Source: Candidatus Omnitrophota bacterium
GTDB taxonomy: Bacteria > Omnitrophota > Gorgyraeia > Gygaellales > Profunditerraquicolaceae
Assembly: GCA_030650425.1 (NCBI GenBank)
Contig: JAUSED010000003.1
Location: forward strand, 135,903-199,902
DNA: 64,000 nucleotides
Direction: 5' to 3'
A program made the translations under genes and the position numbers. The notes under the pieces are model-generated. The model made no database searches. It was given only the letters and a program-made list of their open reading frames with translations, and had not been told where the DNA came from. Positions 17,810-18,102 of the stretch are shown here, piece after piece (positions within the stretch are counted from its first letter, which is position 1; each line of letters opens with the position of its first letter).

Positions 17810-18102
17810 CGCGGGGTGGAGCAGCCTGGTAGCTCGCAAGGCTCAAGTTTTTTGGGCTCTTCAGCCGGTAACGACTGAAGGATAACCTGTCAAATTCGGT
17901 GAAGCCTTAATTTGCAGAGGTAATACCGAGCCAAACTCGTCAAGATTTTGACGGGAAGGTGTAGAGACTAAACGGCAGGGGTCCTTAAATTAAGGATCAA
18001 GATATAGTCCGGACTACGAACTTCGTCATTGCGACGGAGGCAGCGTAAGCTGAAGTAGTAAGCATAACCTTGAGGTCGGCCGTCCAAATCGGCCCCCCGC
18101 AA
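17810..18102 (+). tRNA. Initiator-like tRNA-Met (CAU) interrupted by a group I intron. Exons are 17810-17843 and 18063-18102.
   Basis: The 5' exon CGCGGGGTGGAGCAGCCTGGTAGCTCGCAAGGCT matches E. coli tRNA-fMet through the D-arm. The 3' exon CATAACCTTG-AGGTC-GGCCG-TCCAAAT-CGGCC-CCCCGCA-A completes the anticodon loop (CU|CAUAA), the T-arm and the acceptor. The C1xA72 mismatch is an initiator hallmark. Confidence 0.8.
17844..18062 (+). mobile_element. Group I self-splicing intron (219 nt, no ORF) in the tRNA-Met anticodon loop between U33 and C34
   Basis: Conserved core elements: R-like GTAGAGACTAAACGG and S-like AAGATATAGTCCGGAC, which pair as P7. P1 forms from exon GGCU plus intron CAAG against UUUGGGCU, with a U-1:G pair. 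P2 is CUUCAG...CUGAAG. The intron ends in omega-G. Confidence 0.75.

What the first reader, a model, noticed from the sequence alone, without database searches (positions are those of the whole stretch)
17810..18102. Group I intron splitting an initiator-like tRNA-Met(CAU) in a non-cyanobacterial, low-GC diderm
The two exons reassemble into a tRNA whose 5' half matches E. coli tRNA-fMet, including the C1xA72 mismatch. The 219-nt intervening sequence carries group I R- and S-like core elements (GTAGAGACTAAACGG and AAGATATAGTCCGGAC). A P1 stem with the splice-site U:G pair can be drawn, and the intron ends in omega-G. Group I introns in bacterial tRNA genes are best known from cyanobacteria and a few proteobacteria. 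An intron in the initiator tRNA of this lineage is worth recording.
Basis: partly seen in the sequence, partly recalled or inferred. Interest (0 to 1): 0.7.

Follow-up and report, generated by a model that had tools for sequence, protein, structure and literature searches.

The report
Known tRNA intron beside tRNA-linked endonuclease gene
The initiator tRNA gene of an uncultured Omnitrophota bacterium is split by a genuine self-splicing group I intron of a type already catalogued in this phylum; the more interesting feature is the gene next door, a LAGLIDADG endonuclease whose relatives sit immediately downstream of initiator tRNA genes in every bacterial locus examined.

Summary
Window 17810-18102 is an initiator-type tRNA-Met(CAU) gene split between U33 and C34 by a 219-nt group I intron (17844-18062). 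Rfam RF00028 scores 76 bits. A P1-P9 fold with the P7 pseudoknot is 92.5% paired across 33 relatives, with 45 of 69 pairs covarying. The closest relatives lack exactly these 219 nt.

It is not novel. The 33/34 site in tRNA-fMet is one of the four classical bacterial tRNA intron sites. My scan found it in over 110 species genomes from many phyla. A 2026 survey already lists an Omnitrophota genome with an identical 5' exon and a 75%-identical intron.

The unexpected part is the ORF 26 nt downstream (18128-18901). It is a two-motif LAGLIDADG endonuclease: pLDDT 92, I-DmoI-like fold, invariant catalytic D77 and E185, dN/dS about 0.1. In all 43 distinct bacterial loci recovered (Omnitrophota and CPR), its relatives lie 2-126 nt after an initiator tRNA gene. 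Twenty of those tRNAs carry an intron, from two lineages at two sites, and 23 do not. Some archaeal relatives are placed the same way. The ORF is patchily distributed and 6-17 GC points below its neighbours. It is most likely a free-standing homing endonuclease specialised on initiator tRNA genes. Its target site and any role in moving the intron are untested.

The parts
17760..17787 (+). Promoter-like site (TTTGCA, 16 nt, TATAAT, with TG before the second hexamer) upstream of the tRNA gene
   Evidence: Consensus scan, 10 of 12 matches. The TGTTATAAT motif is also present in relative L123. Function is inferred.
17810..17843 (+). tRNA-fMet exon 1: positions 1-33 including 17a, ending in U33. 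Carries C1, A11 and the anticodon-stem 5' strand CAAGG.
   Evidence: Identical to exon 1 of the published Omnitrophota entry.
17844..18062 (+). Group I intron, 219 nt, IC3-type, no ORF. P1 17840-17846/17852-17858 (U17843.G17855); P2 17859-17880 (GUAA loop); P3 17886-17891/17974-17979; P4 17896-17900/17925-17929; P5 17904-17907/17918-17921; P6 17930-17931/17959-17960 with P6a 17936-17955; P7 17964-17970/18005-18010; P8 17980-17998; P9 18013-18017/18055-18059 with P9a 18021-18039 and P9b 18041-18052 (GUAA loop); omega-G 18062.
   Evidence: RF00028 at 76 bits. Hand-drawn structure tested on 33 relatives: 92.5% of cells paired against 31-42% with partners slid, 45 of 69 pairs with compensatory change, 0 of 500 shuffles as high. 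Homology with intron-less relatives L123 and L135 breaks at 17845/18063.
18063..18102 (+). tRNA-fMet exon 2: C34 to A73, anticodon CAU, T-loop UCCAAAU with C55 at 18084, A72 at 18101. No CCA is encoded.
   Evidence: Same T-loop with a compensatory T-stem change in L123.
18128..18901 (+). Free-standing LAGLIDADG endonuclease gene (257 aa). N-terminal Myb/HTH-like three-helix domain of about 55 aa. Motif 1 LARVHAHVCGD77G, motif 2 WIKAFFDDE185A.
   Evidence: Family of 68 proteins, some matching PF14528. D77 and E185 invariant in 38 sequences. AF2 pLDDT 92. Foldseek best matches are I-DmoI and intein endonucleases, E about 1e-8 to 1e-9, TM 0.74-0.77. dN/dS 0.07-0.10. Immediately downstream of an initiator tRNA in 43 of 43 distinct bacterial loci.
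19103..19124 (+). Terminator-like hairpin followed by a T run, after the ORF. No such site lies between the tRNA and the ORF.
   Evidence: In alleles without the ORF a terminator hairpin follows the tRNA within about 10-50 nt. Co-transcription of tRNA and ORF is inferred.

Best explanation
Window 17810-18102 is the initiator tRNA-Met(CAU) gene of a Candidatus Omnitrophota bacterium. It is interrupted between U33 and C34 by a 219-nt ORF-less group I intron of the classical IC3 'fMet 33/34' type. The precursor is expected to splice itself in two steps. First, exogenous guanosine attacks after U33, which is held in the P1 U.G wobble. Second, with omega-G18062 in the P7 guanosine site, the exons are joined to give a normal tRNA. 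CCA is then added enzymatically, because it is not encoded. The intron is a dispensable genetic element: the closest relatives lack exactly these 219 nt, and other relatives carry a longer version with an internal PD-(D/E)XK homing endonuclease of the I-Ssp6803I family. The window's copy is therefore an ORF-less member of a lineage that is mobile elsewhere.

The tRNA gene appears to share one transcription unit with a free-standing two-motif LAGLIDADG endonuclease gene (18128-18901). This gene family is specifically linked to the 3' flank of initiator tRNA genes. It is most likely a homing endonuclease that recognises initiator tRNA gene DNA and copies itself in between the tRNA 3' end and the tRNA's terminator. 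Repair tracts from such events could carry the neighbouring intron along.

Shown: the identity, fold and exact boundaries of the intron; the identity of the tRNA; the LAGLIDADG fold; the linkage to the tRNA. Inferred: self-splicing activity, co-transcription, nuclease activity, the nuclease's target, and any co-mobilisation of the intron.

My probabilities: intron and tRNA identity 0.97; the ORF is a LAGLIDADG-fold protein 0.95; the ORF is a mobile endonuclease targeting initiator tRNA genes 0.55-0.6; it helps move the intron 0.2-0.25.
For: Intron: RF00028 at 76 bits. Covariation supports P1-P9 and P7, and the splice-site U.G pair is present in 33 of 33 sequences. The spliced product is a canonical tRNA-Met(CAU). 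Homology with L123 and L135 breaks exactly at the intron ends. The same site and architecture occur in over 110 species genomes and in published tables. Long relatives encode PF11645, E 5.7e-44.

ORF: two motifs with invariant D77 and E185. Confident model and I-DmoI-like fold. dN/dS about 0.1. 43 of 43 distinct bacterial loci have an initiator tRNA 2-126 nt upstream, in both Omnitrophota (eno-ftsB context) and CPR (pheST and other contexts). Several archaeal relatives lie next to tRNA-iMet. Genomes without the ORF are interleaved among genomes with it when ranked by enolase identity. The ORF is 6-17 GC points below its neighbours in every locus. Homology between relatives ends at the ORF stop codon. 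L138 has the ORF plus only the 3' part of the tRNA, in a different context. Encoded CCA is found in 2 of 43 ORF-linked alleles against 56 of 112 alleles without the ORF. A promoter-like site precedes the tRNA and a terminator-like site follows the ORF, with nothing between them.
Against: No activity was tested. The window protein itself gets no Pfam LAGLIDADG hit, even at E up to 10. Within Omnitrophota, ORF divergence roughly tracks enolase divergence, nearly all copies are intact, and the gene is under purifying selection; all of this also fits a vertically inherited, domesticated gene. Twenty-three of 43 loci keep an uninterrupted tRNA next to the ORF, so if the enzyme cuts inside the tRNA gene those genomes would need some other protection. 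The CCA comparison is confounded by different taxon sampling in the two sets. The background frequency of introns in tRNA-fMet of these phyla was not measured, so enrichment of introns next to the ORF is not established. No relatives were found in viral contigs, so the vehicle for transfer between phyla is unknown.
Confidence: 0.8

Rival explanations
1. The ORF is a domesticated LAGLIDADG-derived host protein that is co-expressed with tRNA-fMet and inherited vertically. It could be a DNA-binding regulator like WhiA, or a factor acting on the tRNA gene or its RNA. On this view it is not a selfish mobile endonuclease.
For: dN/dS 0.07-0.10 and almost all copies full length. ORF identity tracks enolase identity within Omnitrophota. 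It has an extra N-terminal HTH/Myb-like domain. WhiA appears among the fold matches (8dy9_I, E 5.5e-5). It co-exists with uninterrupted tRNA genes in 23 of 43 loci.
Against: Both catalytic acidic residues are invariant in 38 sequences. The best fold matches are active endonucleases. Presence is patchy among close relatives. The same tRNA linkage occurs in unrelated gene neighbourhoods in CPR and archaea. GC content, and GC3 where measured, has not drifted to host values, with a gap of up to 34 GC3 points. L138 is an ectopic copy carrying a partial tRNA.
Confidence: 0.25
2. Collaborative (trans) homing in the strict sense. The LAGLIDADG enzyme cuts intron-less initiator tRNA genes at or near the anticodon loop. 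Introns at 33/34 or 36/37 disrupt that site and so confer immunity, and they are copied in together with the endonuclease gene during repair.
For: An ORF-less intron and a free-standing endonuclease gene share one gene, as in the phage psbA/F-CphI and I-TevIII/mobE cases (PMC3984707). Two unrelated intron lineages at two anticodon-loop sites both occur next to this ORF family, in 20 of 43 loci. The intron is a precise presence/absence polymorphism within the ORF-bearing clade.
Against: Twenty-three of 43 ORF-linked tRNA genes have no intron, and I saw no obvious protective substitutions in their anticodon stem-loops. The most consistent difference I saw between alleles with and without the ORF is at the 3' end, where CCA is missing. 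Many intron-bearing genomes lack the ORF. The background intron frequency is unknown.
Confidence: 0.2
3. The ORF encodes a maturase that the intron needs in order to splice.
For: LAGLIDADG proteins often double as group I intron maturases (established knowledge). The ORF appears to be co-transcribed with the intron.
Against: The ORF lies outside the intron and outside the tRNA gene. Twenty-three of 43 loci have no intron. The associated introns belong to two unrelated lineages. Many close relatives of this intron have no such ORF within several kb. IC3 tRNA introns self-splice without protein in the studied cases (the Azoarcus pre-tRNA-Ile intron is a self-splicing IC3 model system, PMC13168695 abstract; otherwise established knowledge).
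Confidence: 0.05
4. The interrupted gene is a decaying pseudogene. The functional initiator tRNA lies elsewhere, and the intron may be inactive.
For: Unusual C55 in the T-loop. Only two G:C pairs in the anticodon stem. No encoded CCA.
Against: The same C55 T-loop occurs in L123 with a compensatory T-stem change (GGCCG/CGGCC against GACCG/CGGTC), which indicates selection on the folded tRNA. The CAAGG/CCTTG anticodon stem is shared by many Omnitrophota and by the published genome. All core intron pairs are intact. A strong promoter-like site is conserved.
Confidence: 0.04
5. The ORF is cargo at the edge of an integrase-type genomic island inserted at the tRNA gene.
For: tRNA 3' ends are classic island integration sites. 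The DNA immediately downstream of the ORF differs between relatives. L138 carries a partial tRNA 3' copy next to the ORF.
Against: No direct repeat of the tRNA 3' end exists elsewhere in the window. There is no integrase. The downstream genes are housekeeping (GH94, purB, purL/S, LOG, purQ, purF), and partly the same set follows in L125 and L126. In CPR the ORF is a single gene between core genes.
Confidence: 0.03

Closest known systems
Classical tRNA-fMet group I intron of cyanobacteria (site 33/34, subgroup IC3; the Synechocystis PCC 6803 copy encodes I-Ssp6803I)
   Same: Same host gene, same insertion site (U33/C34), same P1-P9 architecture. It aligns with cyanobacterial copies in A2. Long relatives in Omnitrophota encode the same PD-(D/E)XK family, PF11645 (PMC1995217).
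   Different: The window's copy has no internal ORF (219 nt against 655 nt). The host is Omnitrophota.
Omnitrophota GCF_004102945.1 tRNA-fMet 33/34 IC3 intron (Table S5 of PMC13011429)
   Same: Identical exon 1, same site, same phylum. The intron is 75% identical over aligned positions.
   Different: 252 nt against 219 nt, with a longer P6 region. Whether that genome has the downstream LAGLIDADG gene is unknown.
Collaborative or trans homing pairs in phages: the cyanophage S-PM2 psbA intron with free-standing F-CphI, and T4 I-TevIII with mobE
   Same: An ORF-less or defunct group I intron with a free-standing endonuclease gene next to the interrupted gene (PMC3984707, PMC2790892, PMC6083498).
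   Different: Here the setting is cellular chromosomes rather than phages, a tRNA gene rather than a protein gene, and a LAGLIDADG enzyme. About half of the linked tRNA genes have no intron. The target site is unknown.
Phage T4 SegB
   Same: A free-standing homing endonuclease that resides among tRNA genes and recognises a conserved tRNA gene motif, the T-psi-C stem-loop (PMC2330249).
   Different: SegB is a GIY-YIG enzyme in a phage tRNA cluster and is not dedicated to a single tRNA species.
I-DmoI and intein-associated LAGLIDADG endonucleases
   Same: Single-chain two-motif fold. Foldseek E about 1e-8 to 1e-9, TM about 0.75 normalised to the target.
   Different: Those enzymes are encoded inside an rRNA intron or an intein. 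Sequence identity is only 16-17%. They have no N-terminal Myb-like domain.
WhiA (a domesticated LAGLIDADG protein with an HTH domain)
   Same: A LAGLIDADG scaffold fused to a helix-turn-helix domain; it is a fold match at E 5.5e-5.
   Different: The HTH is C-terminal in WhiA. WhiA lacks the catalytic acidic residues (my own knowledge), whereas they are invariant in this family.

Membership tests
Group I intron (Rfam RF00028) | Scores above the family's gathering threshold with the covariance model | tested here: met
   76.0 bits against a gathering score of 50, E 1.7e-17, covering the full model 1-253.
Group I intron (Rfam RF00028) | Conserved core helices P3-P9 including the P3/P7 pseudoknot, maintained by compensatory change | tested here: met
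   69 pairs in 13 helices, 92.5% paired against 31-42% with slid partners. 45 pairs show changes on both sides. P7 is 100% paired.
Group I intron (Rfam RF00028) | P1 with a U.G wobble at the 5' splice site and a terminal omega-G | tested here: met
   U17843.G17855; the U.G pair is present in 33 of 33 sequences. G18062 is invariant (G227).
Group I intron (Rfam RF00028) | Precise removal restores a functional host gene | tested here: met
   The spliced sequence is called tRNA-Met(CAU). Intron-less relatives L123 and L135 have exactly the joined exons.
Group I intron (Rfam RF00028) | Guanosine-dependent self-splicing | not testable with these tools
   Needs in vitro transcription and a splicing assay.
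IC3 'fMet 33/34' tRNA intron class | Inserted between U33 and C34 of tRNA-fMet and homologous to introns classified as IC3 | tested here: met
   Site established. Aligns with cyanobacterial and other fMet 33/34 introns. 75% identical to a published intron labelled IC3. No formal subgroup classifier was run.
Bacterial initiator tRNA (tRNA-fMet) | CAU anticodon, a mismatch at positions 1 and 72, and A11:U24 | tested here: met
   C1xA72, A11 (17820) with U24 (17834), anticodon CAU at 18063-18065.
Bacterial initiator tRNA (tRNA-fMet) | Three consecutive G:C pairs in the anticodon stem (29:41, 30:40, 31:39) | tested here: not met
   A29:U41, G30:C40, G31:C39, so only two G:C pairs. The same CAAGG/CCTTG stem occurs in many Omnitrophota and in the published genome, so this is a lineage variant rather than decay.
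Bacterial initiator tRNA (tRNA-fMet) | Canonical T-loop with U54 U55 C56 | tested here: not met
   C55 at 18084 (UCCAAAU). Shared only with L123, where the T-stem has a compensatory change.
LAGLIDADG homing endonuclease (single chain) | Two LAGLIDADG helices, each ending in a conserved acidic residue | tested here: met
   LARVHAHVCGD77G and WIKAFFDDE185A. D77, D183, D184 and E185 are invariant in 38 sequences.
LAGLIDADG homing endonuclease (single chain) | Pseudo-dimeric alpha-beta-beta-alpha-beta-beta-alpha fold | tested here: met
   AF2 pLDDT 92.2. Best Foldseek matches are I-DmoI and intein endonucleases, probability 1.00, TM 0.74-0.77 normalised to the target.
LAGLIDADG homing endonuclease (single chain) | Match to a curated LAGLIDADG profile | tested here: inconclusive
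   The window protein has no Pfam hit. Homologues P0045 and P0061 pass PF14528 (31.8 and 33.1 bits against a cut-off of 22.5), and several family members carry precomputed PF14528 hits.
LAGLIDADG homing endonuclease (single chain) | Site-specific DNA cleavage and gene conversion into alleles that lack the gene | not testable with these tools
   Only indirect signs: patchy distribution, the same tRNA linkage in unrelated neighbourhoods, GC offset and the ectopic copy L138.
Collaborative (trans) homing pair | [quoted passage not shown] | tested here: met
   The ORF starts 26 nt after the interrupted tRNA gene. The same arrangement is seen in 20 distinct bacterial loci.
Collaborative (trans) homing pair | The endonuclease's target coincides with the intron insertion site, so intron-bearing alleles are immune | not testable with these tools
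   Indirectly disfavoured: 23 of 43 ORF-linked tRNA genes have no intron.
Intron-encoded maturase | The ORF is located within the intron it assists | tested here: not met
   The ORF lies outside the intron and outside the tRNA gene, and it is often present where there is no intron.
Integrase-type genomic island at a tRNA gene | An integrase gene and a direct repeat of the tRNA 3' end at the distal boundary | tested here: not met
   No repeat in the window. Downstream genes are housekeeping and include no integrase.

The most novel reading that the evidence does not exclude
Initiator tRNA genes of uncultured bacteria (Omnitrophota, CPR), and possibly archaea, are contested by several selfish elements. 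The tRNA-linked LAGLIDADG enzyme would cut intron-less initiator tRNA genes in or near the anticodon loop. Group I introns at 33/34 and 36/37 would then act as immunity inserts and be mobilised in trans with the endonuclease gene. This would be collaborative homing operating in cellular chromosomes. The natural intermediates are all seen here: endonuclease gene only, intron only, both together, intron with an internal PD-(D/E)XK endonuclease, and both endonucleases at once in L160. Together they would trace the pathway by which mobile introns are assembled.
Probability: 0.2. Interest if true: 0.75.

Novelty: new member of a known kind. Interest (0 to 1): 0.45.

Why it matters
On its own the intron adds one more entry to a well-populated class, already recorded in this phylum. 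Its practical lesson is that standard tRNA finders miss the only initiator tRNA gene found in this window: ARAGORN in default mode did not report it.

The neighbouring gene is worth more attention. It is a conserved, apparently active LAGLIDADG endonuclease family that in every bacterial locus examined sits directly behind an initiator tRNA gene, across Omnitrophota and CPR and in part of the archaeal relatives. I found no description of this in the searched literature. The latest survey of tRNA introns looked only for ORFs inside introns and concluded that mobility is limited (PMC13011429). Adjacent free-standing endonucleases would change that conclusion.

The system also offers, in natural genomes, all the intermediate states needed to test how endonuclease genes and ORF-less introns come together. 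It could also supply a new meganuclease scaffold, aimed at one of the most conserved sequences in bacteria.

Tried and rejected
1. My genome scan pattern was built from a misreading of the intron 3' end. The window has GAAGTAGTAAG|CATAACC and does not match the pattern, so the source genome could not be recovered that way.

2. Pfam, and phmmer against PDB sequences, gave nothing useful for the window ORF itself. Results were a weak Myb-like hit and a spurious acetolactate synthase hit. The fold had to be established through homologues and structure prediction.

3. ARAGORN with intron detection places the splice site wrongly and calls the gene tRNA-Leu(CAA), or Ser or Pro in relatives. I re-derived the boundaries from the U(-1)/omega-G rule and from intron-less relatives.

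4. No relative of the ORF was found in viral contigs.

5. The genomic-island idea was rejected.

6. The weak tblastn hit of the ORF at 29277-29360 is chance.

7. The break of the Logan contigs inside exon 1 probably reflects the near-universal exon sequence in a metagenome graph rather than biology. I did not pursue it.

8. I could not draw a convincing P10 pairing between the 3' exon and the internal guide region. It was not needed for the verdict.

I therefore make no claim that introns are enriched next to the ORF.
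Full report
**1. Checking the observation**

Joining 17810-17843 to 18063-18102 gives a 74-nt sequence. ARAGORN calls it tRNA-Met(CAU), with a C1xA72 mismatch at the top of the acceptor stem. Its first 27 nt are identical to E. coli tRNA-fMet. The intervening 219 nt (17844-18062) begin after U33 and end in G. Rfam's group I model RF00028 matches 17834-18028 at 76.0 bits (gathering score 50, E 1.7e-17). It is the only intron hit in the window. ARAGORN in default mode missed the gene entirely. 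With intron detection switched on, it misplaced the splice site and called the gene tRNA-Leu(CAA).

**2. The fold of the intron**

I drew a complete P1-P9 structure by hand. It includes the P3/P7 pseudoknot, GUAA tetraloops on P2 and P9b, the U17843.G17855 splice-site wobble and omega-G18062. I tested it on an alignment of 33 related introns from many phyla.

- 92.5% of cells form standard pairs, against 31-42% when the 3' partners are slid by 1-3 columns.
- 45 of 69 pairs show compensatory changes.
- None of 500 shuffles reaches the observed values.
- The splice-site U.G pair is present in 33 of 33 sequences, and P7 is fully paired.

The structure was derived from one of the aligned sequences, which favours it somewhat. 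The amount of double-sided change in P2, P3, P6a, P8, P9a and P9b is far beyond that bias.

**3. Host organism and the intron as a polymorphism**

The protein encoded just downstream is on record as a hypothetical protein of a Candidatus Omnitrophota MAG. The closest relatives of the intron and of the flanking genes are also Omnitrophota. Against the two nearest relatives, L123 and L135 (enolase 90-91% identical), nucleotide homology runs to 17845 and resumes at 18063. Those genomes have exactly the uninterrupted tRNA gene. More distant relatives have the intron (L139, L125) or lack it (L165, L140, L126). So the intron is a precise, recurrent presence/absence polymorphism.

**4. What is already known**

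The 33/34 site in tRNA-fMet ('fMet.2Ug') is one of the four classical group I intron settings in bacterial tRNA genes, all of subgroup IC3 (bioRxiv 10.1101/2020.01.27.920355). A 2026 survey found tRNA group I introns in 18 phyla and lists fMet 33/34 examples in Bacteroidota and Nitrospirota. It also lists an Omnitrophota genome, GCF_004102945.1, whose exon 1 is identical to ours and whose 252-nt IC3 intron is 75% identical to ours (PMC13011429). These came from Omnitrophota, Planctomycetia, Nitrospirota, Bacteroidota, Cyanobacteriota, Acidobacteriota, Chloroflexota, CPR, Chlamydiae and others. In 112 of them I could reconstruct a split initiator tRNA gene with the intron at the same site. The intron is therefore a new member of a well-known kind, already recorded in this phylum.

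**5. Intron lengths and internal endonuclease genes**

Intron lengths among relatives cluster at about 200-350 nt, at about 620-660 nt, and in a few cases at 950-1000 nt. The 620-660 nt forms, including several Omnitrophota, encode a PD-(D/E)XK endonuclease of the I-Ssp6803I family that starts almost at the 5' splice site (PF11645, E 5.7e-44). The 950-1000 nt forms encode a LAGLIDADG_2 protein. The window's 219-nt intron is thus an ORF-less member of a lineage that elsewhere carries its own homing endonuclease.

**6. Features of the tRNA**

The tRNA has the initiator hallmarks: a CAU anticodon, the 1x72 mismatch and A11:U24. Only two of the canonical three G:C pairs are present in the anticodon stem, because 29:41 is A:U. 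This variant is shared by many Omnitrophota and by the published genome. The T-loop has C55 in place of the near-universal U55. That feature is shared only with L123, whose T-stem differs by a compensatory change, so the folded tRNA is under selection. CCA is not encoded.

**7. The neighbouring gene is a LAGLIDADG endonuclease**

Twenty-six nt after the tRNA starts a 257-aa ORF (18128-18901). Pfam gives no significant hit for it. A homology search found 68 relatives, some carrying PF14528 (LAGLIDADG_3). In an alignment of 38 of them there are two LAGLIDADG-type motifs, LARIHAHVCGDG and WIRAFFDDEA. D77 and D183/D184/E185 are invariant. The bacterial members have an extra N-terminal three-helix Myb-like domain of about 55 aa that the archaeal members lack. 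AlphaFold2 gives a confident model (pLDDT 92.2). Its best matches among solved structures are the intein-associated endonucleases and I-DmoI (E about 1e-8 to 1e-9, TM 0.74-0.77 normalised to the target). The protein is under purifying selection: dN/dS is 0.07-0.10 against three relatives, compared with 0.04 for enolase.

**8. Linkage of the gene family to initiator tRNA genes**

I fetched the genomic context of homologues by exact-protein look-up and by a protein-only scan of metagenome contigs, which found 167 relatives and kept 80 loci. After removing duplicates, all 43 bacterial loci in which a complete tRNA gene could be delimited upstream have an initiator-type tRNA-Met(CAU) gene ending 2-126 nt before the ORF start, with a median of about 21 nt. 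Loci with too little upstream sequence could not be scored, and L138 keeps only the 3' part of a tRNA (section 9).

| Setting | Neighbourhood | State of the tRNA |
|---|---|---|
| Omnitrophota | ftsH-eno-ftsB-tRNA-ORF | with or without a 33/34 intron |
| CPR (Nealsonbacteria, Parcubacteria and unnamed) | different, e.g. pheST | with or without an intron |
| Some archaeal relatives (e.g. a Bathyarchaeota MAG) | different | tRNA-iMet upstream |
| Two more distant relatives | different | tRNA-Pro(UGG) upstream |

Twenty of the 43 tRNA genes carry a group I intron and 23 do not. In the CPR-type loci the introns belong to a different lineage (RF00028 at 78-100 bits). They sit after U36, at site 36/37, with P1 pairing CCAU with GUGG. 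Conversely, none of the 120 intron-bearing loci from the genome scan encodes the ORF. Intron and ORF are therefore distributed independently, but both home in on the same gene. L160 has the internal PD-(D/E)XK gene and the downstream LAGLIDADG gene together. L161 keeps only a 27-aa remnant of the internal gene.

**9. Mobile element or host gene?**

Evidence for mobility:

- Genomes without the ORF are interleaved with genomes that have it when ranked by enolase identity to the window.
- The same tRNA linkage occurs in unrelated neighbourhoods in different phyla and domains.
- The ORF is 6-17 GC points below its surroundings in every locus. This includes high-GC hosts where enolase GC3 is 85% and ORF GC3 is 51%.
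- Homology between relatives ends at the ORF stop codon, while the wider neighbourhood (GH94, purB, LOG, purL) is conserved further on. The ORF behaves as a single-gene insert.
- In L138 the ORF is preceded only by the 3' part of a tRNA, in a different context.
- ORF-linked alleles almost never encode CCA (2 of 43, against 56 of 112 alleles without the ORF; Fisher p = 2e-8). Taxon sampling differs between the two sets.
- In alleles without the ORF a terminator hairpin follows the tRNA within about 10-50 nt. In the window the only terminator-like site comes after the ORF, at 19103-19124. The only convincing promoter-like site on this strand upstream of the ORF (10 of 12 matches, with the TG extension) precedes the tRNA, at 17760-17787.

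Evidence for a resident host gene:

- Nearly all copies are intact and under purifying selection.
- ORF identity declines in step with enolase identity within Omnitrophota.

I found no integrase and no repeat of the tRNA 3' end. There are no relatives in viral contigs.

**10. Most likely mechanism**

The intron is expected to self-splice by the standard group I pathway and is phenotypically neutral. The ORF is most likely a free-standing LAGLIDADG homing endonuclease expressed by read-through from the tRNA promoter. It would recognise initiator tRNA gene DNA, one of the most conserved sequences available. After cleaving an allele that lacks it, it would be copied in between position 73 and the terminator, which destroys its own site. 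This is 'intronless homing' as described in PMC3984707. Co-conversion of flanking DNA could carry an intron that lies only about 40 nt upstream of the tRNA 3' end. That would be a form of the collaborative or trans homing known from phages. T4 SegB shows that a free-standing endonuclease can live among tRNA genes and recognise the T-psi-C stem-loop (PMC2330249). The strict collaborative model has the enzyme cutting at the intron insertion site, with introns acting as immunity. It is attractive because two intron lineages at two loop positions accompany this ORF. It is weakened by the 23 intron-less linked alleles. All steps after fold and linkage are inference.

**11. Literature**

Full-text searches for a LAGLIDADG or free-standing endonuclease linked to initiator tRNA genes returned nothing relevant. 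[quoted passage not shown] The library does not cover subscription journals, so absence of a prior description is not proven.

**12. Verdict**

The finding is real and correctly interpreted, but ordinary: a new member of the classical fMet 33/34 IC3 intron class, already listed for Omnitrophota. The by-product is of moderate interest and worth a targeted follow-up. It is a conserved LAGLIDADG endonuclease family tied to the 3' flank of initiator tRNA genes in Omnitrophota and CPR, and in part of its archaeal relatives. It co-occurs with two intron lineages and with a rival intron-borne endonuclease.

Noticed in passing
window 18083-18085 (T54 C55 C56); L123 tRNA: The T-loop reads UCCAAAU, with C55 in place of the near-universal U55 (pseudouridine 55). 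Among more than 150 initiator tRNA genes examined, only the closest relative L123 shares it, and L123 has a compensatory T-stem change. Whether this affects G18-psi55 tertiary pairing, or is a resistance change against an endonuclease that reads the T-arm (compare SegB), is unknown.
   Followed up: partly
window 17837-17841 / 18068-18072: The anticodon stem CAAGG/CCTTG has only two of the three G:C pairs regarded as an initiator hallmark, because 29:41 is A:U. The variant is conserved in a subset of Omnitrophota, in one Paceibacter MAG and in the published genome GCF_004102945.1.
   Followed up: partly
L138:2900-3000: A copy of the LAGLIDADG ORF is preceded only by the 3' portion of a tRNA-fMet gene: anticodon stem-loop, T-arm and an acceptor strand one C short. 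The 5' part is unrecognisable and there is no eno-ftsB neighbourhood. It looks like an ectopic or decayed insertion that carried part of the tRNA along.
   Followed up: partly
L160 (tRNA about 2230-2940; intron 637 nt) and L161: L160 has both a PD-(D/E)XK endonuclease ORF inside the tRNA-fMet intron (73% identical to L121's) and the LAGLIDADG ORF downstream of the same tRNA. L161 has a 350-nt intron that retains only a 27-aa remnant of the PD-(D/E)XK ORF.
   Followed up: partly
L149, L153, L155, L157, L158, L166, L171, L177, L181, L187: CPR-type initiator tRNA genes next to the ORF carry a different group I intron lineage (RF00028 at 78-100 bits) inserted after U36, at site 36/37. Several CPR initiator tRNAs also have C33 in place of U33 (loop CCCAUAA).
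   Followed up: partly
L130:3806-4130: In this Parcubacteria locus there is no canonical start codon between the tRNA 3' end and the conserved N-terminus of the LAGLIDADG protein. The called ORF starts inside the intron (P8/P9 region) and reads in frame across the 3' splice site and the whole of exon 2. This could be a real overlap translated from unspliced precursor, or a non-canonical start.
   Followed up: no
L133:about 3690-3890, L134; L191, L193, L200, L207-L209, L211, L212; L204, L205: Archaeal relatives of the ORF lack the N-terminal domain and match PF14528. They also lie downstream of tRNA genes. Several follow tRNA-iMet, which in the Bathyarchaeota locus has an insert of about 33 nt in the T-loop, probably an archaeal bulge-helix-bulge intron. 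Two follow tRNA-Pro(UGG). For about ten others no tRNA was found upstream.
   Followed up: partly
window 8269-8349 (+): A c-di-GMP-I-GGC riboswitch aptamer (RF03167) at 61.1 bits, just above its gathering score of 59.
   Followed up: no
window 19157-23398 (+): A 1413-aa ORF directly downstream of the LAGLIDADG gene has no Pfam match. It has an N-terminal signal-like segment and is absent at this position in the relatives L123, L125 and L126. The segment between the LAGLIDADG gene and the conserved GH94-purB-LOG-purL block differs in every genome compared.
   Followed up: no
L001, L002 (Logan assembly of SRR13727527): An independent short-read assembly contains this locus at 100% identity, but it breaks inside tRNA exon 1 (about 17816-17838). 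The likely cause is that the exon sequence is shared by many bacteria in the sample. Many contigs carrying homologues of the ORF likewise start inside the tRNA (L124, L134).
   Followed up: no
window 17810-18102: ARAGORN in default mode does not report this tRNA. With intron detection it misplaces the splice site and names the gene tRNA-Leu(CAA); in relatives it calls Ser(CGA) or Pro(UGG). Automated annotation of such genomes could therefore seem to lack an initiator tRNA or to gain a spurious tRNA.
   Followed up: yes
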